From a virus: a stretch of DNA of 64,000 bases. The notes under the pieces were generated by a model, which saw only the letters and a list, made by a program, of their open reading frames with translations, had not been told where the DNA came from and did not search any database. The DNA is taken from the IMG/VR virus record IMGVR_UViG_3300024265_000031; one strand, written 5' to 3'. Numbering within the stretch: the stretch's first letter is position 1; each line of letters begins with the position of its first letter. A program made the translations under genes and the position numbers. Shown piece after piece: positions 31,412 through 38,124 of the stretch.

Positions 31412-31702
31412 TCATTTTTTATCTTCCTCATAATAATCACAATTCTTAACAAAAGAAGTTACATTGCGGTTGCGTTTGAAAGCCTTGTTTAAAAACTCGC
31501 AGGTGTTATCAACATATCTACATGAACGTCTTCCACTGGGATCTTCCCTATAAACTATTTCATGGGCGCAAGATATACAAGCCCTAGTTGCTGGATTGCG
31601 ATCACAGGTCTTTTCATGTTTCAAAATAACTTTCACATCAAAAGAACCAGCTTTTCTACAACCATAAAATTGACAGAGATAGAATATTTTTTCTTTAGGC
31701 AC
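31412..31702 (-). CDS. Cys-rich hypothetical protein
   Basis: HEKTCDRNPATRACISC. Confidence 0.55.
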   Translation of the reverse strand: MPKEKIFYLCQFYGCRKAGSFDVKVILKHEKTCDRNPATRACISCAHEIVYREDPSGRRSCRYVDNTCEFLNKAFKRNRNVTSFVKNCDYYEEDKK

Positions 31703-33117
31703 TATATCTCTCCTGCCGTATGAGAATTGCTTTCCCTGAATCCAGCACTGGTAATCTCTATAAATTCAGCCTTAGTAAGTTCTGGCACATTATACGCATT
31801 GCAATAACTCATTCCAGATTTCAAACCTCCAAGCAACTGATAAATTATATCATTCACAATTCCTTTATATGGTATGAAAGATTCTACTCCTTCTGGTACG
31901 ATGGTATTAAGTGCTCCCTTATCTGTCCTATCAGCGTTTGCCAAAAAAGAAGCTGAACCCCTATGGGCCTTATACTTTTTATTCTTTCTCGTAATTACTT
32001 CGCCAGGACTTTCAGTGGTTCCAGCAAATAATCCTCCCAACATTACTGTAGAGGCTCCTGCGGCTAAAGCTTTAGTTATATCGCCAGAATATCTTATACC
32101 CCCATCAGCAATTATGTGCTTATTCAATCTTGTAGCAGCCTTTGAACATTTCATAACTGCTGTTAACTGAGGCACTCCTACACCAGCCACAATTCTTGTC
32201 GTACAGGAAGCCCCAGGGCCAATTCCAACTTTTACTGTGTCTGCTCCCGCGTCTAATAAATCATTTACTCCACTGGCTGTAGCAACATTTCCACCAACAA
32301 TATCCACATGTGGAAATTTTGTTCTAATCTGTCTTATTGTTTTCAGAACAATTTCATTATGACCATGTGCCACATCCACTACAATTGCATCAGCGCCAGC
32401 TTCTACAATGGCCTCTACTCTTGCCATATAGTCGCCAATTACACCAACAGATGCACCAACTTTGTATCTTTCATGTTCATCAACAGTAGAATTAGGATAT
32501 TTTTCAGAATTCTCTAAAGACTTTGCCGTAATAAGTTTTATAAATTTATAATACATTTGCCTTTCACTTATTATGGGTAATTTTTCAACTTTATGCATTT
32601 TGAAAAATTCTTTTGCCTCATCTTTGGTTGGAATGTCCGTCAAATAAAAAATGTTTGACATTGGTGTCATTAGTTCAAGCGCAGTCTTAGACAAATCTGT
32701 TTCATAAACATAATCTCTTTTAGAAACAATACCCAAAAAACTATTTTGTGTGTCTACAACAACAAATCCCGTCTTATCAGAATAGCTAATTAATTCCTTC
32801 ATTTCTGCAAGAGTAACTAAAGGCAAAATCTTTTGTGGATCCTCAATCGTATGTCCAGCATAATTTTTCACTCTTTTAATATGCCAGACCTCTTCTTCAA
32901 TAGACATAAACCTGTGAATAAATCCAATGCCACCAGTCTGAGCCATAGCAATAGCCATGTTTGACTCTGTTACAGTTGCCATATTTGCAGAAATCAATGG
33001 TATATTCAAAACTATTTTTTCTGTAAGATTTGTAGCCAGGGATACATTAGATCTACTATCAATAAATGATCGTTTAGGAACTAGAAGCACATCGTCAAAT
33101 GTCAAACCTTTTATCAT
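31702..33117 (-). CDS. guaB: IMP dehydrogenase with CBS domains
   Basis: [40 protein letters not shown]. Confidence 0.92.
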
Positions 33118-34188
33118 TTAGATAAACCTTGCAAGATTTTTCTCAATAGTTTCCCAATCAATGATTCCACCAGTTCTGTCAATGATGGAATCGTAAGATT
33201 TGCCCGTATTCAATATTGTAATTGGTAGATTAGTTAACATTTCAATCTTATCAATTAGATGGTGTATCTTGGGCGTAATTTGATTGGCATTTGTAGTATT
33301 ATTTATATTGATATCATAGTGCTCACAAAATGTAAGTGCAATTTGTGTTGCGCCATTAACTTCAACCGCATACAACAACTGTTCAAAATCAATCCCAGAT
33401 GCCTTACGCCTGGTTTTGCCATAAATTGAACTAGGTTCTGCAAAGCCCATAGAATCCAATTGATCATATTGAAGCTCTGGTACATCTCCCATATTGCCAG
33501 CACCCTCCCTGGATGGCAATGCCTTTACCACCAAAACAACTTCTTTCAAATTTTGCCAATTCAAAAGCACATCATCTGCCGCAGCCATAGCTGTAACATT
33601 GTCTGAGGTTACGTTAGGGTAGTCACCTATAGACAGCGAAAGAAATGTTCCTTGAGAGGATTCAATCATTACAACACCTTCTTTAGAACCTTGATTGATT
33701 TCTCCGCTAACCTCAGTCAAAAATTCCTGAAGCACTTCAATATCTTTAGCTTGTTGAACTTTACGAAGAGCAAGATCAGCCCTACAATATCCAGTTCCAC
33801 TCATTGTGGATCCAATATTGTTCATATCTTTACTGTCATATTCTGCTTGAATGTGTTCTGGGGTAATGATTGGACAATGCCTGTCTATTTTTACACGTTC
33901 TCTTAGGTTATACCTATCCATTTCGGCAAACAATTTTACAGGATCTACAGCAACACCACTGCCGATTCTAATTTGTGTTTCAGGATTGAATATCCATCCT
34001 AAAGGAAGTTGGTTTGCTTTGAGATAGGTTGTTTCATTTTGCATAAAGATGCCATGCTCTGCATTAGCGCCAGTTCCAGCACGACATACCAATTTAGAAT
34101 TTTCTCTTACACTGAGATATGCATCAATCAACCCCTTTCCCTCATCTCCCCACTGCGCCCCAACGACAATCCATGCTCCTCTATTCAA
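33118..34188 (-). CDS. purA: Adenylosuccinate synthetase-like protein (short, divergent)
   Basis: GAQWGDEGKG, IGSTMSGTG, QGTFL, YPNVTS. Confidence 0.78.
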   Translation of the reverse strand: MNRGAWIVVGAQWGDEGKGLIDAYLSVRENSKLVCRAGTGANAEHGIFMQNETTYLKANQLPLGWIFNPETQIRIGSGVAVDPVKLFAEMDRYNLRERVKIDRHCPIITPEHIQAEYDSKDMNNIGSTMSGTGYCRADLALRKVQQAKDIEVLQEFLTEVSGEINQGSKEGVVMIESSQGTFLSLSIGDYPNVTSDNVTAMAAADDVLLNWQNLKEVVLVVKALPSREGAGNMGDVPELQYDQLDSMGFAEPSSIYGKTRRKASGIDFEQLLYAVEVNGATQIALTFCEHYDININNTTNANQITPKIHHLIDKIEMLTNLPITILNTGKSYDSIIDRTGGIIDWETIEKNLARFI

Positions 34189-34240
34189 TACTGTTCTCCT
34201 TTTTGTTTTTTATTTTCTCAGATAAAACATCTATTTTATC

Positions 34241-35221
34241 TTAGATTCGATATAATGGGCATTCTCTATTATTACTCCAAAGCCTATTTCGCCATTCTTT
34301 CATCTCTGAAGATAACCAAATATTGTTCAAGAAATCAATATCTCCTAAAAGATTTAGTTTGAATGTATTGTTTTCAGTAAATGAACAAGGGGAAACGTAT
34401 GCATCAACATTGATATAGATAGAAAACAATCCAGACTCGCAAGGTTCTGCATATATTTGAGCCATTGCTTCATGCTGTGTTCCCCTTACTGCATTCATAT
34501 ATTTATGAGCAGAACAAGAATCGAATCCCAGTGGAATATCCCATATTGCAGCCTTTTCAATAAGATTGTTGAATTCTTTTTGATTAAGTTGTGTATATTT
34601 ACTACCCCTTCCACATTTTTTCAAAGACAATAAAACAATTGCATTTATTTTTTTCTTTCTGCTATCTTCTATTTGTAGAAAATCATAGAGATTACTCAGC
34701 GTTTCTTTTGCAAGCATATAATGTACGTTCACTTGATTCAATCCCGCATCAGACAACATTTCAACAGCATTCAAACATACTGTATGATCATAATTGCTTA
34801 CAGCAATAGCTCCACAAAGATTAGCAAGATCTTTCGCTATCTTTGGCACTATCTGATATCCGTTGATAGTCAAATTAGGAACAACATTGTTCTCCCTGCA
34901 GTAATTAAAAATTTTTAACATATCTGGATTGCTATCAAGATCTCCTATTCCAAAAGCAATTTGAGTTATGGTGTCTGGCAATTTGACAAACACTTTTTGA
35001 AAAGTTTCTAGTGTCATATATCTGCCATATATTGTATTTGATTTATAACAGAATGAACATCCTTTATGACATATAGTAGAGATTTCAATATCTGCTATCT
35101 CTGGCCCTAACTCACACCATTGAGGATCTTCTTCTAATGTTTTACCCCATCGTGCCATAAACCCAGTTATTGGATTGAATATCATATTGTAATTTTTCGT
35201 GTGTATTTGTTTTGTTTTCAT
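34241..35221 (-). CDS. Radical SAM enzyme with SPASM/twitch-like C-terminus
   Basis: CHKGCSFC (CxxxCxxC); PCESGLFSIYINVD..VSPCSF...ECP. Confidence 0.9.
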   Translation of the reverse strand: MKTKQIHTKNYNMIFNPITGFMARWGKTLEEDPQWCELGPEIADIEISTICHKGCSFCYKSNTIYGRYMTLETFQKVFVKLPDTITQIAFGIGDLDSNPDMLKIFNYCRENNVVPNLTINGYQIVPKIAKDLANLCGAIAVSNYDHTVCLNAVEMLSDAGLNQVNVHYMLAKETLSNLYDFLQIEDSRKKKINAIVLLSLKKCGRGSKYTQLNQKEFNNLIEKAAIWDIPLGFDSCSAHKYMNAVRGTQHEAMAQIYAEPCESGLFSIYINVDAYVSPCSFTENNTFKLNLLGDIDFLNNIWLSSEMKEWRNRLWSNNRECPLYRI

Positions 35222-35226
35222 TTGTA

Positions 35227-35637
35227 TTATTCGCCCACGATTATATTGAATGTTTCCTCATTGTTCATGACGTTTAGAAAATTAATAAATGATTCATCAT
35301 GATAATCTATGTCTGCTTGCAAAATAATAAATCCTTCTTCTATTTTGGACTTGCATTTTTTATATGTCTTTCTATAATATTCTTCATCATCCAATATTTT
35401 TTCTAGGGTGTCAAACTTTCCCCAACAATGCTCATCAACAAAATATTTGTCTAGCTCTTTGACAGTTTTAATTTGTTCCATTTGATTAGACAATGCACTT
35501 AAGAATGTATCAGTAAAGGTCTTTAAAAATGGATATTTTTCTAGGGTTTCTTTATCAAATATCTCTGAAGATATTTTGGATGCAATCATGTAAGAGGAGG
35601 TAGAACTATTACTTACAAATCCTTGTCTAATTTTCAT
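35227..35637 (-). CDS. MKIRxGFVSNSS-motif protein 4
   Basis: Starts MKIRQGFVSNSSTSSY. Confidence 0.85.
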   Translation of the reverse strand: MKIRQGFVSNSSTSSYMIASKISSEIFDKETLEKYPFLKTFTDTFLSALSNQMEQIKTVKELDKYFVDEHCWGKFDTLEKILDDEEYYRKTYKKCKSKIEEGFIILQADIDYHDESFINFLNVMNNEETFNIIVGE

Positions 35638-36107
35638 CCATCCCTCCAGCCCTCTTCATAATATGAAACATCTGAAACATCAAAATCTATATTGAATTGT
35701 TTTTTAATTTCTTCAACAACAATTTGGGGAATTTCTGAAATCTTTCTGTCTGGATATTCTTTTAAAAATGTTTCTGGCATAATGCCAACAAATCTTTCAT
35801 AGTCCCACGGCCCACCCTCTGTCAGATTACCTTTATTTTTTACTTCTTCATCGAATTCATTTTGAGCATATTCAATCTTTTCATCATTTGTTTCACATTG
35901 TTTTAATTCTGCGATATATTCTGGAAATCTTTTTTGCACATAGTCATTGTCAATTTCTTTGGATAATCTTTCTTCATATTCGCTTAATGCATCTTGAAAA
36001 ATTTTTAACCATACATTATCACTGATTTCTATTCTCTCAGATGAAACACCCCATGCCGCAAAACTACTTGTGCTACTGTTGGATACAAATCCATTTCGTA
36101 TTTTCAT
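35634..36107 (-). CDS. MKIRxGFVSNSS-motif protein 3
   Basis: Starts MKIRNGFVSNSSTSSF (start corrected from track). Confidence 0.85.
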   Translation of the reverse strand: MKIRNGFVSNSSTSSFAAWGVSSERIEISDNVWLKIFQDALSEYEERLSKEIDNDYVQKRFPEYIAELKQCETNDEKIEYAQNEFDEEVKNKGNLTEGGPWDYERFVGIMPETFLKEYPDRKISEIPQIVVEEIKKQFNIDFDVSDVSYYEEGWRDG

Positions 36108-36108
36108 T

Positions 36109-36408
36109 TTATGAACTCCATTCCACACAATCCATATTGACACCTATTTTTTCTAAAAATAATTCCATATTGAAATTATCCATGAACACATTGCCCTCAA
36201 TCTTTCTAGAGGTTTCAGAAATATTCCAATTAAAATTGAGATTTCGATAATCGACATCGGGGTGAATTCCACATTCCGACCCAAATAATAAATCATCAAT
36301 TTCAATATGTTTTCTTATGAGTTGTAATTGAATATCAGTAAGCTTATTCTTACTAAGAACAAAACTTGAACTACTACTGTTACTTACAAAACCATTTCTA
36401 ATTTTCAT
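36109..36408 (-). CDS. MKIRxGFVSNSS-motif protein 2
   Basis: Starts MKIRNGFVSNSSSSSF. Confidence 0.85.
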   Translation of the reverse strand: MKIRNGFVSNSSSSSFVLSKNKLTDIQLQLIRKHIEIDDLLFGSECGIHPDVDYRNLNFNWNISETSRKIEGNVFMDNFNMELFLEKIGVNMDCVEWSS

Positions 36409-36417
36409 TTTATTTTC

Positions 36418-36918
36418 CTAATGTTTGCTTATTCTTATGTGTGGCAAATTTCTGAATATATTTCCATGTTCAAGAAAGCATTCATATTGTCCACCATTAT
36501 CACTATACTCAAATAGAGATATGAAACAACCATTATTATCTTGTACAAATTTTCTAAAAAATTCGGAATTTTTAATGGCTTCTAAAGTTGCTTTGTTATA
36601 CCCTTCCCAATCGTAGTCTCCATCTTCAACAAAGTCTTCATAGTCTGGAAGTTCGCCATCAATTTCATAAACAGTTCCACAGCTTAGTTCTTTAATAATT
36701 TCCGATTCACTTATTGAGATTTTTGATATATCCATAAAGATTTTTTCTGAAATTTCTTCTGTAGTATAAGAAGATGTGTCTACATAAGGATGATTTAACC
36801 TTTCTTCTCCATCATACATAAGCTCTTTTGTTTTCTCAACCGACAATGGCTTATTAGGAAAGGCTACTACAAAACTGCTACTTGAACTATTGCTTACAAA
36901 TCCGTTTCTAATTTTCAT
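36418..36918 (-). CDS. MKIRxGFVSNSS-motif protein 1
   Basis: Starts MKIRNGFVSNSSSSSF after AAGGAG (start corrected from track). Confidence 0.85.
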   Translation of the reverse strand: MKIRNGFVSNSSSSSFVVAFPNKPLSVEKTKELMYDGEERLNHPYVDTSSYTTEEISEKIFMDISKISISESEIIKELSCGTVYEIDGELPDYEDFVEDGDYDWEGYNKATLEAIKNSEFFRKFVQDNNGCFISLFEYSDNGGQYECFLEHGNIFRNLPHIRISKH

Positions 36919-36936
36919 GTATTCTCCTTGTATAAT

Positions 36937-36965
36937 ATCATACCATACTTTTTCAGTCTTGTCAA
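36937..36965 (-). promoter_or_regulatory. Sigma70-type promoter of the motif-protein/radical SAM operon
   Basis: TTGACA-17 bp-TATGAT with TG extension. Confidence 0.85.
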
Positions 36966-37224
36966 GATAAAACCTAGATTTTATATTATAAATGGTGGGA
37001 TTTCTAACCACCAAACATCATTGTATTTATTATAATCGATATCTTTGAGATCATATCCAAATGTAGAACTTCCAGACCATGCCTTTTCCATTACATATAT
37101 CATTCCATCAAGTTCTCTACAAGCGTATTTGCCCATCAACAATCTAATGATTGTACGAATTAAAAATGGTTTCTCTAAATACGCCCTTACAAAATCAGTG
37201 GCCCATCCTGAAAGAACAATACAT

Positions 37225-38124
37225 TCACTTATCATGCGGGTTTTTAGTAAAAGTCCTTTCCAATGTGGGAACCCCACAAATTTTTTCCCAAACACCAGGA
37301 CTGAATGGGTATTTGTTGCTAGATTCCTCTTTGAAACGCCTTTCTATTCCATATGCCTTATGCTCTTCATATCCATGTCCCCTACCAATGTCTGCAGGAT
37401 TATTTATAATGTACAACAATCCTTTGGTTTTTAGCAATCTTGCAAACTCGTCTACGTAGAAGTCAAACGATGGCTTTGTCATTTCTTGGAACGAATGTAG
37501 ATTTATTCCAAGATCAAAAGATTCTTTTTTGAGTTTCCCAATATTCCAAGCTGGTAATGATACAAAATTGTAATCATTAAAATTGGTTGTCTTATTCAAT
37601 ATACCAGCCACCTTTAGATTAGGGAATGCTTGTTTCATAACTTGTGGTGCAAATGTAAGAGATGAAGGCACATAGTCCACAGAAACATAGTGACACTTCT
37701 TACCAAAAAACTTTAGGAAGAACATTGCCATACGTCCGTAGCCACCACCAACTTCAACCACTCTAATACTTTTCATATTTTCAAAATTAATCTTTTGTGA
37801 TTTGAAAAACTTTTCAATTTTGTAGAATTGATAAAGTCCTGTTTGAACATCCAAAGTGTCTACATTTCTAAAATGTTCTGCCATACTGTGCTTATCAATT
37901 TGGTTAGATTTTTCTTTAGTCTTTTCAGGATATCCATTTCCTAGCCAAGAAAGTGATTCAAACTTTCCTCCGTTATTTATAACAGATTTAAGATTCAGTT
38001 TTGAATCTTTTTCCCAATGATGATGCAATTTACACCCGTCATTATTCTGCCAATTTTTTGCAACAAGTTTTTCCACCCTATTGAATTGTTTTGGATCTAA
38101 TTTAATTTTTGAAAAATCTATCAT
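37225..38124 (-). CDS. SAM-dependent methyltransferase (putative sugar O-methyltransferase)
   Basis: VVEVGGGYGR, FDLGINLHSFQEM. Confidence 0.75.
   Translation of the reverse strand: MIDFSKIKLDPKQFNRVEKLVAKNWQNNDGCKLHHHWEKDSKLNLKSVINNGGKFESLSWLGNGYPEKTKEKSNQIDKHSMAEHFRNVDTLDVQTGLYQFYKIEKFFKSQKINFENMKSIRVVEVGGGYGRMAMFFLKFFGKKCHYVSVDYVPSSLTFAPQVMKQAFPNLKVAGILNKTTNFNDYNFVSLPAWNIGKLKKESFDLGINLHSFQEMTKPSFDFYVDEFARLLKTKGLLYIINNPADIGRGHGYEEHKAYGIERRFKEESSNKYPFSPGVWEKICGVPTLERTFTKNPHDK

What the first reader, a model, noticed from the sequence alone, without database searches (positions are those of the whole stretch)
34241..36965. Four proteins with a shared MKIRxGFVSNSS(S/T)SS N-terminus co-transcribed with a radical SAM/SPASM enzyme
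Seen: promoter, then four 99-166 aa ORFs with nearly identical first 16 residues (with differing codons, so conserved at protein level) and dissimilar acidic bodies, then a CxxxCxxC enzyme with a SPASM/twitch-like tail. The unit is bounded by junction palindromes. Known: SPASM radical SAM enzymes typically modify peptides or proteins (RiPP maturases; anaerobic sulfatase maturases that oxidise Ser/Cys to formylglycine). Inference: a phage post-translational modification system in which the Ser-rich N-terminus is the recognition or modified segment, possibly creating a protein-derived cofactor; alternatively the motif is an assembly strand of a heteromeric complex.
Basis: partly seen in the sequence, partly recalled or inferred. 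Interest (0 to 1): 0.82.

Follow-up and report, generated by a model that had tools for sequence, protein, structure and literature searches.

The report
Phage radical-SAM enzyme with serine-tagged client proteins
An uncultured phage has one radical-SAM enzyme co-transcribed with four otherwise unrelated acidic proteins that all start with the same 16-residue serine-rich tag; the pair recurs across very many phages and, as a sister form, in bacterial immune-type (Avs2-like) operons, so it is probably an undescribed protein-modification system of phage-host conflict.

Summary
On the minus strand a strong sigma-70-like promoter precedes four tightly packed ORFs (166, 99, 157 and 136 aa). All begin MKIR[N/Q]GFVSNSS[S/T]SS[F/Y], written with different codons. 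A 326-aa radical SAM enzyme follows them.

The link between tag and enzyme is strong:
- 61 of 77 IMG/VR phage records with the tag also hold the enzyme, 47 of them within 10 kb on the same strand.
- 15 of the 16 records without it are fragments (45% complete or less).
- The one complete phage without it carries a single tagged gene whose start codon reads ACG and which has lost an invariant His.

A tag profile finds 24,130 protein clusters (50% identity). The tag sits at residue 1, on at least 87 body families, mostly unrelated and acidic.

The enzyme models confidently. Its closest solved folds are peptide-modifying radical SAM enzymes (SkfB, SuiB, CteB, EpeE, anSME). It keeps only four auxiliary cysteines, so it is twitch-like, and it has no RRE.

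A bacterial sister clade with a full SPASM domain sits in a fixed cassette: Avs2-like STAND NTPase, a small protein, one tagged protein, then the enzyme.

Best reading: the enzyme modifies the tag. The chemistry is unknown. I found no paper on it. This scan had already noted the same system on other DNA.

The parts
36937..36965 (-). sigma-70-like promoter of the operon (TTGACA, 17 nt, TATGAT, with TG before the -10)
   Evidence: 11 of 12 matches, the best site in 33900-37500. Sequence read. Function is not shown.
36418..36918 (-). M1, tagged client protein, 166 aa (phrog_7397 family)
   Evidence: 291 homologues. Invariant D140, E150, H151, H166 in addition to the tag. AF2 model pLDDT 93, with residues 1-10 of low confidence. 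No fold match in the PDB or BFVD.
36109..36408 (-). M2, tagged client protein, 99 aa
   Evidence: Belongs to the second commonest body family: 25 members in 24 loci.
35634..36107 (-). M3, tagged client protein, 157 aa, net charge -16
   Evidence: A singleton body at the BLAST level among the loci fetched.
35227..35637 (-). M4, tagged client protein, 136 aa
   Evidence: Singleton body. Weak PADLOC ThsB/TIR-like hit, E 1e-4, 19.9 bits, not followed up.
34241..35221 (-). radical SAM enzyme with a reduced, twitch-like SPASM tail, 326 aa (phrog_7293)
   Evidence: Foldseek top hits SkfB, SuiB, CteB, TigE, EpeE and anSME.
34216..34245 (.). 12-nt inverted repeat overlapping the enzyme's stop codon; a possible end of the unit
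   Evidence: I2, 92% complementary, 6 nt between the arms. It is AT-rich and was not called a terminator.
36993..37013 (-). 6-bp stem (tggtgg/ccacca) followed by T-rich sequence, upstream of the promoter, inside the 3' end of an 84-aa ORF
   Evidence: read from the sequence; not tested further.

Best explanation
This is a phage protein-maturation system. One radical SAM enzyme has a partial-TIM-barrel core, a single auxiliary Fe-S cluster and a short N-terminal three-stranded sheet in place of an RRE. It recognises a shared, nearly invariant N-terminal tag, M-K-x-R-x-G-F-V-S-N-S-S-S-S-S-F, on several unrelated small acidic proteins. It then carries out a radical-mediated change in the flexible first dozen or so residues of that tag. 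I infer three candidate chemistries: a C-C or C-O cross-link involving Phe7 and Ser/Thr9 or Asn10; oxidation of a Ser to formylglycine; or, less likely, epimerisation. The clients are most likely host-takeover or anti-defence proteins. The tag probably stays frozen because many clients share one enzyme. What is shown: the anatomy, the co-occurrence, the enzyme's fold class, and the sister cassette next to an Avs2-like STAND NTPase. What is inferred: that the tag is the substrate, the chemistry, and the role of the clients.
For: Four clients and the enzyme form one operon. In 77 IMG/VR tag loci, arrays of 1 to 14 tagged ORFs lie on one strand. An enzyme homologue lies within 10 kb on the same strand in 47 of them. 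It lies elsewhere on the record in 14 more. Of the 16 records without it, 15 are at most 45% complete. The single complete one has a lone client with an ACG start and LEHG changed to MENG. The enzyme is the only gene besides the clients that is conserved across the loci. The tag profile finds 24,130 representative clusters at E<=0.001, and the tag sits at residue 1 in nearly all of the top 150. Internal copies are fusions of two neighbouring tagged genes. Bodies fall into 87 BLAST clusters; only 2 of 276 profile pairs reach 90% probability. The enzyme model has pLDDT 93. Its best PDB folds are peptide or protein maturases: SkfB 5e-11, SuiB, CteB, TigE, EpeE, anSME. The M1 model leaves residues 1-10 at low confidence, so they may be free to enter an enzyme. 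In the bacterial sister cassette a single tagged ORF lies directly upstream of the enzyme in 63 of 67 loci with room for one. An Avs2-like NTPase is present in 38 of 38 loci with at least 4 kb upstream.
Against: No chemical change has been observed, and no RNA or protein data exist for this locus. In T4-like phages such as KP27 the enzyme lies about 20 kb from the two tagged genes. The enzyme has no recognisable RRE. Tag residues 13-20 are predicted to be the first core strand of M1, so part of the tag is structural. M1 has its own invariant D/E/H/H set, which could mean the tag takes part in an active site. A distant enzyme relative (28.7% identity) in a 462-kb phage has no canonical tag in its genome.
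Confidence: 0.6

Rival explanations
1. The tag is a docking handle and not a substrate. It adds a strand to the enzyme's small N-terminal sheet, and each variable body acts as an adaptor that brings a different target (a host protein, a nucleic acid or a small molecule) to the radical SAM active site.
For: The same co-occurrence data fit this reading. The enzyme has a conserved 45-residue N-terminal three-stranded sheet in place of an RRE. The bodies are very diverse, as expected of target-binding modules.
Against: The bacterial cassette has exactly one tagged protein per enzyme, the usual maturase-substrate arrangement. The closest folds are all enzymes that act on the peptide they bind. A pure docking motif would be expected to drift together with its partner, whereas this one stays nearly invariant while the enzyme diverges to 30-50% identity.
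Confidence: 0.2
2. The tag is a sorting signal, for packaging into the capsid and ejection, for export, or for controlled proteolysis. It would be analogous to the capsid-targeting sequence of the T4 internal proteins. On this reading the enzyme is only a co-inherited neighbour.
For: Tandem polymorphic small proteins that share only an N-terminal peptide resemble the T4 internal-protein locus (my own knowledge, not tested here). In T4-like phages the enzyme is not adjacent to the tagged genes.
Against: Near-obligate co-occurrence with the enzyme in complete records, and decay of the lone client where the enzyme is absent. The same tag and enzyme occur in a chromosomal bacterial cassette with no virion. 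The tag is invariant across phages of very different kinds, from 150 kb to over 500 kb, whose capsid scaffolds differ.
Confidence: 0.08
3. The tag is an intrinsic catalytic or phosphate-binding element (a strand followed by a Ser-rich loop) of a diverged enzyme superfamily. On this reading the radical SAM enzyme supplies a metabolite or cofactor and does not act on the proteins.
For: The M1 family has invariant D140, E150, H151 and a C-terminal H166 besides the tag. Ser-rich loops after a first strand bind phosphate in flavodoxin-like proteins such as NrdI (from memory, not tested). IMPDH/GMP-reductase-like genes are embedded in the arrays of 15 loci, and guaB plus a purA-like gene lie just downstream in this window.
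Against: The bodies include unrelated families, among them Cys-rich zinc-ribbon-like ones, with no shared polar residues. AF2 does not place residues 1-10 in the M1 fold. No fold match to any nucleotide-binding protein was found.
Confidence: 0.07

Closest known systems
RiPP radical SAM maturases with SPASM or twitch domains (SkfB, SuiB, CteB, TigE, EpeE)
   Same: Fold: Foldseek E from 5e-11 to 5e-8, TM 0.54-0.69. A profile hit to SkfB and BtrN. One radical SAM cluster plus auxiliary Fe-S. Encoded beside proteins that carry a conserved recognition sequence.
   Different: No PqqD-like RRE. The clients are proteins of about 100-280 aa, confidently modelled as folded for M1, and not short peptides. 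One enzyme serves up to 14 unrelated clients. The tag is at residue 1 and nearly invariant. No protease or exporter is conserved nearby. The tag has no Cys, so thioether chemistry is excluded.
Anaerobic sulfatase-maturating enzymes (AtsB/anSME) acting on sulfatases
   Same: A radical SAM maturase without an RRE that acts on a Ser of a full-length protein. Structural similarity: 4k39, E 1.3e-7, TM 0.58.
   Different: anSME has two auxiliary clusters, while the phage clade has four auxiliary Cys only. The (C/S)xPxR motif is absent from the tag. anSME serves a single client family. No anSME model appears among the NCBIfam hits.
FxSxx-COOH / FxsB radical SAM-SPASM peptide systems of STAND- and vWA-MoxR-linked conflict operons (Kaur et al. 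2020, PMC7159879; FxsB reported as a cyclophane former, PMC10114670)
   Same: A radical SAM/SPASM enzyme paired with a short conserved F-x-S motif, in operons with a STAND-type NTPase. The tag contains F-V-S/T.
   Different: That motif is C-terminal and released by a peptidase, whereas this one is N-terminal on whole proteins. No FxsB family hit appears in NCBIfam at E<=0.1. The relation is analogy only.
Avs2 (antiviral STAND type 2), for the NTPase of the bacterial sister cassette
   Same: PADLOC Avs2 models match the NTPase core at E 6.7e-30.
   Different: It is 874 aa against about 1400-1500 aa. Only profile positions 338-760 are matched. No known effector or sensor domain was found. It is always followed by p139, one tagged protein and the enzyme.
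T4 internal proteins with their capsid-targeting sequence (own knowledge)
   Same: Tandem, polymorphic small proteins that share only a short N-terminal peptide.
   Different: The sequences differ. No partner enzyme is known for the capsid-targeting sequence. This tag is conserved far beyond T4-like phages and also occurs in bacterial chromosomes.

Membership tests
Radical SAM superfamily (PF04055) | CxxxCxxC motif for the SAM-binding [4Fe-4S] cluster, and a Pfam score above the gathering cut-off | tested here: met
   C51/C55/C58, conserved in 94-97% of 35 homologues. Pfam score 37.1 bits against a cut-off of 29.5.
SPASM domain (PF13186 / TIGR04085) | The full seven-Cys pattern: Cx9-15Gx4C, a gap, Cx2Cx5Cx3C, a gap, C, binding two auxiliary clusters | tested here: not met
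   The Pfam SPASM score passes (23.6 against 21.5). However, the phage clade conserves only C236, C261-x12-G/A274-x4-C279 and C321; the Cx2Cx5Cx3C block is absent. The bacterial sister clade has all eight auxiliary Cys.
Twitch-type radical SAM enzymes (one auxiliary cluster; BtrN, SkfB) | A shortened SPASM tail with about four Cys for a single auxiliary cluster | tested here: met
   Four conserved auxiliary Cys. Profile hits to SkfB (E 0.0011) and to the C-terminal part of BtrN (E 0.007). SkfB is the best Foldseek match. Cluster binding itself is not testable here.
RRE-dependent RiPP maturases | A PqqD-like RiPP recognition element (winged helix plus three-stranded sheet) in the enzyme or in a partner protein | tested here: not met
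   No PqqD/RRE Pfam hit at E<=1. The N-terminal extension is only about 45 residues and consists of three strands. No conserved partner gene is present.
Anaerobic sulfatase-maturating enzymes | A client with the (C/S)xPxR motif, and an enzyme matching the anSME family models | tested here: not met
   The tag lacks the motif. No anSME family appears among the NCBIfam hits at E<=0.1.
Sactipeptide / ranthipeptide maturases | A Cys donor in the substrate for the thioether bond | tested here: not met
   The tag consensus has no Cys in positions 1-16.
Glycyl-radical enzyme and activase pairs | An RVxG[FYW] glycine loop in the client, and an activase without a SPASM domain | tested here: not met
   The tag reads R-x-G-F, one residue short. 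In most bacterial sister tags position 6 is Asp. The enzyme's best folds are SPASM/twitch maturases.
phrog_7397 / phrog_7293 (PHROGs families of unknown function) | An HMM match over the full length | tested here: met
   M1 against phrog_7397: E 1.7e-21 over 1-166. The enzyme against phrog_7293: E 1.7e-66. Both families are unannotated.

The most novel reading that the evidence does not exclude
The tag-enzyme pair is a general switch for arming conflict proteins. The radical SAM enzyme would convert a residue of the invariant N-terminal peptide into a new chemical group, for example a Ser-derived aldehyde or a strained Phe-Ser/Thr cross-link. That group would be needed for the activity or survival of dozens of unrelated effectors. 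Phages would use it for offence, with arrays of up to 14 clients. Bacteria would use a sister version under the control of an Avs2-like STAND NTPase for defence. This would be a new class of enzyme-directed modification of whole proteins, with a portable 16-residue tag.
Probability: 0.2. Interest if true: 0.9.

Novelty: new variant of a known kind. Interest (0 to 1): 0.8.

Why it matters
If the enzyme does modify the tag, this is one of the largest uncharacterised protein-modification systems in viruses. The profile search finds about 24,000 distinct client clusters, on dozens of unrelated folds, with a single invariant 16-residue handle. It could reveal new radical chemistry on whole proteins. 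It could also give biotechnology a short portable tag for enzyme-directed modification. The tie to an Avs2-like STAND cassette in bacteria points to an unexplored arm of phage-host conflict. Culturable carriers exist (Klebsiella phages KP27, KP15 and Miro; Citrobacter phage Miller), so the question can be tested directly.

Tried and rejected
- No whole genome is held for the window.
- The search for related loci with the single enzyme found nothing in viral contigs. With alignment A3 it had no stretch conserved enough to search genome contigs.
- M1 fold: no match in the PDB by Foldseek. The best VIA Z was 3.8. Nothing significant in BFVD. The ESM Atlas gave only unnamed viral clusters.
- No Pfam or NCBIfam family matches any client. 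PADLOC gave only a weak ThsB-like hit for M4.
- Literature: motif strings occur in 0 papers. Searches combining radical SAM with phage, SPASM, STAND or maturase found no description of this system.
- No RNA holder is listed for the stretch. The only holder is the probable source metagenome.
- 400 genomes of the phylum of G434 held no sister enzyme.
- M3, M4 and the bacterial client share nothing beyond the tag.
- Ideas rejected: thioether chemistry (no Cys in the tag), and a glycyl radical (spacing is wrong, and position 6 is Asp in most sister tags).
- A flavodoxin/NrdI-like or TIR-like first strand with a Ser loop was recalled from memory only and not tested.
- The direction of transfer between the phage and bacterial clades is not resolved. 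The quick tree, rooted at its midpoint, shows only two clades split by a branch with 99% support.
Full report
**1. What is in the window**

On the minus strand, 36965-34241, a sigma-70-like promoter precedes five tightly packed genes. The promoter is TTGACA-17-TATGAT with a TG before the -10, and it is the best site of the region. The genes are M1 36418-36918 (166 aa), M2 36109-36408 (99 aa), M3 35634-36107 (157 aa), M4 35227-35637 (136 aa) and a 326-aa enzyme at 34241-35221. Spacings run from a 4-nt overlap to 9 nt.

All four small proteins begin MKIR[N/Q]GFVSNSS[S/T]SS[F/Y]. A six-frame regex scan finds these four copies and no others in the 64 kb. The tag-coding DNA uses different Ser codons in each copy, so selection acts on the peptide.

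With the tag removed, the four bodies have no detectable similarity to one another. They are acidic, with net charges of -15, -4, -16 and -8.

A 12-nt inverted repeat overlaps the enzyme's stop codon. Upstream there is only a 6-bp stem, inside the end of an 84-aa ORF. Flanking genes are two methyltransferases upstream and, downstream, a purA-like gene and guaB.

**2. The enzyme**

- It passes the Pfam cut-offs for Radical_SAM and SPASM and matches phrog_7293, a family of unknown function.
- Across 35 phage homologues the conserved cysteines are C51/C55/C58 (the radical SAM cluster) and only four more: C236, C261, C279 and C321.
- The first half of the SPASM pattern, C-x12-G/A-x4-C, is present. 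The Cx2Cx5Cx3C block is missing. This suggests one auxiliary cluster, as in twitch enzymes.
- There is no RRE. The 45-residue N-terminal extension is conserved and is predicted to form three strands.
- The AF2 model is confident: pLDDT 93, pTM 0.90.
- The nearest solved structures are SkfB (E 5e-11), SuiB, CteB, TigE, EpeE and anSME. All of these act on peptides or proteins.
- By sequence profile, only SkfB and BtrN give weak matches.

**3. The tag**

- In 308 unique tagged ORFs from 78 loci the consensus is M-K-(I/V/T)-R-x-G-F-V-S-N-S-S-S-S-S-F-(I/V)-(V/I). Positions outside the regex I used are still 83-98% conserved.
- A 30-column profile built from 113 diverse N-termini finds 24,130 representative clusters (50% identity) at E<=0.001 among 1.84 billion proteins.
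- In nearly all of the top 150 the match starts at residue 1. The few internal matches are two neighbouring tagged genes fused into one call, each copy still starting with Met.
- Caveat: the score range of a 16-residue motif is narrow, so the count at E<=0.001 may include some degenerate or sister tags.

**4. The clients**

- The bodies fall into 87 BLAST clusters, 59 of them singletons.
- Among 24 families, only 2 of 276 profile-profile pairs reach 90% probability.
- Some families carry Cys-rich zinc-ribbon-like motifs.
- 89% of the clients are net negative, with a mean charge of -8.5.
- M1 belongs to the commonest family (phrog_7397; 291 homologues). This family has invariant D140, E150, H151, F155 and a C-terminal H166.
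- The M1 model is confident (pLDDT 93) except for residues 1-10. Tag residues 13-20 form its first strand.
- The M1 fold has no match in the PDB or BFVD.
- M2 belongs to the second commonest family. M3 and M4 are singletons among the loci fetched.

**5. Is the enzyme linked to the tag?**

- In 77 IMG/VR loci fetched through the tag, arrays of 1-14 tagged ORFs lie on one strand. An enzyme homologue lies within 10 kb on the same strand in 47. It can sit upstream of the array, downstream of it, or inside it.
- The enzyme is the only non-client gene conserved across the loci.
- Of the 30 remaining records, 14 hold the enzyme elsewhere. These include all the T4-like genomes, where it lies about 20 kb away. 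In KP27 the enzyme is at 88947-89969 and the tagged genes are KP27_130 and KP27_124.
- Of the 16 records without the enzyme, 15 are at most 45% complete.
- The single complete one is a 225-kb record with terminal repeats. It has one M1-like gene whose start codon reads ACG behind a good ribosome-binding site, and whose LEHG motif reads MENG. That looks like decay after loss of the partner, but it is one case only.
- The same layout recurs in 14 contigs of genome bins assigned to very different taxa and in a 147-kb phage-like contig of a Bacteroidota assembly.
- The reversed DNA pattern used as a control gave 0 hits against 27 for the tag pattern.
- A limit: my loci were chosen through the tag, mostly through M1, so the reverse direction (enzyme without tag) is poorly sampled. 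One distant enzyme relative (28.7% identity) in a 462-kb phage has no canonical tag.

**6. The bacterial sister system**

- A Bacteroidota chromosome region, among the genes ffh, rpsP, trmD and rplS, holds a four-gene cassette. It consists of an 874-aa NTPase, a 139-aa protein, a 138-aa protein starting MKIRYDFVTNSSSTSF, and a 364-aa radical SAM/SPASM enzyme.
- The NTPase core matches the PADLOC Avs2 models at E 6.7e-30.
- The enzyme is 30% identical to the window's enzyme over its full length, including the N-terminal extension (E 5e-50).
- This clade has over 1,300 homologues. Named members come from Chryseobacterium, Myroides, Chitinophaga, Odoribacter, Nostoc and Nitrospirae, some on chromosome-sized contigs.
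- It keeps all eight auxiliary cysteines.
- In 80 metagenome loci, a single tagged ORF of 126-140 aa lies directly upstream of the enzyme in 63 of 67 loci with room for one. The Avs2-like NTPase is present in 38 of 38 loci with at least 4 kb upstream.
- Sister tags read MK(I/V)(R/K)x(D/G)F(V/I)(T/S)NSSSTSF. Across both clades the universal core is therefore F-x-(S/T)-N-S-S-S-x-S-F.
- The sister client body is homologous to one phage body family (hhalign 96%), but not to M1-M4.
- A quick tree separates the phage and bacterial enzymes by a branch with 99% support. The two clades group together, apart from other Bacteroidota SPASM enzymes. The direction of transfer is not resolved.

**7. Mechanism**

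The best-supported reading is that the enzyme acts on the tag (confidence 0.6). The chemistry can only be narrowed down:

- There is no Cys in the tag, so thioether formation is out.
- Asp at position 6 in most sister tags argues against a glycyl radical.
- All seven conserved Cys of the enzyme are plausibly cluster ligands, which leaves no obvious H-donor Cys for an epimerase like EpeE.
- Two candidates remain. One is dehydrogenation of a Ser/Thr, as in anSME and BtrN. The other is a C-C or C-O cross-link between Phe7 and residue 9 or 10, as in the three-residue cyclophane formers. FxsB, which acts on FxS motifs, is reported to form cyclophanes (PMC10114670).

The invariance of the tag is explained by many clients depending on one enzyme. 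The rivals (docking handle, sorting signal, intrinsic catalytic loop) are given with their evidence in the fields above.

**8. Novelty**

- PHROGs lists both families as of unknown function.
- Pfam, NCBIfam and the ESM Atlas have no name for the clients.
- Full-text searches found no description of the system.
- The nearest published concept is the radical SAM-SPASM peptide module of STAND and vWA-MoxR conflict systems (PMC7159879). It differs in motif position, in processing, and in enzyme family.
- This scan had already noted the same system on other genomes. My results agree with those notes.
- New here: the count of client clusters, the loss of the second cluster motif in the phage clade, the M1 invariant set and its unmatched fold, the decayed lone client, and the quantified sister cassette.

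Noticed in passing
L013, L015/16, L026/27, L028, L035, L036/37/40 and others; window 31702-34188: An IMPDH/GMP-reductase-like gene (289-376 aa) is embedded in or next to the tag arrays in 15 loci. In the window, guaB (471 aa) and a purA-like gene follow the enzyme directly. This may reflect shared ancestry of those phages or a link to nucleotide metabolism.
   Followed up: partly
L010, L011, L042 (at the CxxxCxxC motif); L068, L044, L071, L093: The radical SAM gene is split by insertions in several phages. An intein-like insert starts right after the cluster motif and ends ...HN|C. Another insert carries a GIY-YIG-type ORF. The gene is a target for mobile introns and inteins.
   Followed up: partly
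L002 (KP27 65509-69879): In T4-like Slopekvirus and Karamvirus phages, the two tagged genes flank a 738-aa protein with an N-terminal vWA-like DxSxS motif.
   Followed up: no
L061 9998-10672 (IMG/VR 225-kb record with terminal repeats): The only complete tag-bearing phage without the enzyme has one M1-like gene with ACG in place of ATG and an invariant His replaced by Asn.
   Followed up: yes
L082 / G001 contig C10 (178,077 bp) in a Flagellimonas marina assembly: The contig has the size and the tag/enzyme layout of a T4-like enterobacterial phage genome. It is probably phage DNA in the assembly and not a Flagellimonas locus.
   Followed up: partly
window 36981-37235 (-): An 84-aa ORF whose ATG overlaps the stop of the upstream methyltransferase (ATGATAAGTGA). 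It ends just before the operon promoter and is not in any family searched.
   Followed up: no
window, 13 sites, e.g. 24148, 26105, 34216, 34234, 41015, 44407, 45674, 51977: The motif TTTTATCTNAGA (at most 1 mismatch) occurs 13 times against 4.9 expected, mostly on the minus strand. It may be a recurring intergenic signal of this phage.
   Followed up: partly
window 35227-35637 (M4): Weak PADLOC hit of the M4 body to ThsB/TIR-like (E 1e-4, 19.9 bits). No Pfam support.
   Followed up: no
L188 (LR756500.1, 462-kb uncultured phage): A distant relative of the enzyme (28.7% identity) occurs in a genome with no canonical tag. It may serve a different substrate.
   Followed up: partly
L103 10799-11218 (p139 of the bacterial cassette): The untagged 139-aa protein begins with a tag-like MKLTYSF... 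that lacks the Ser run. It may be a degenerate paralogue of the tagged client.
   Followed up: no
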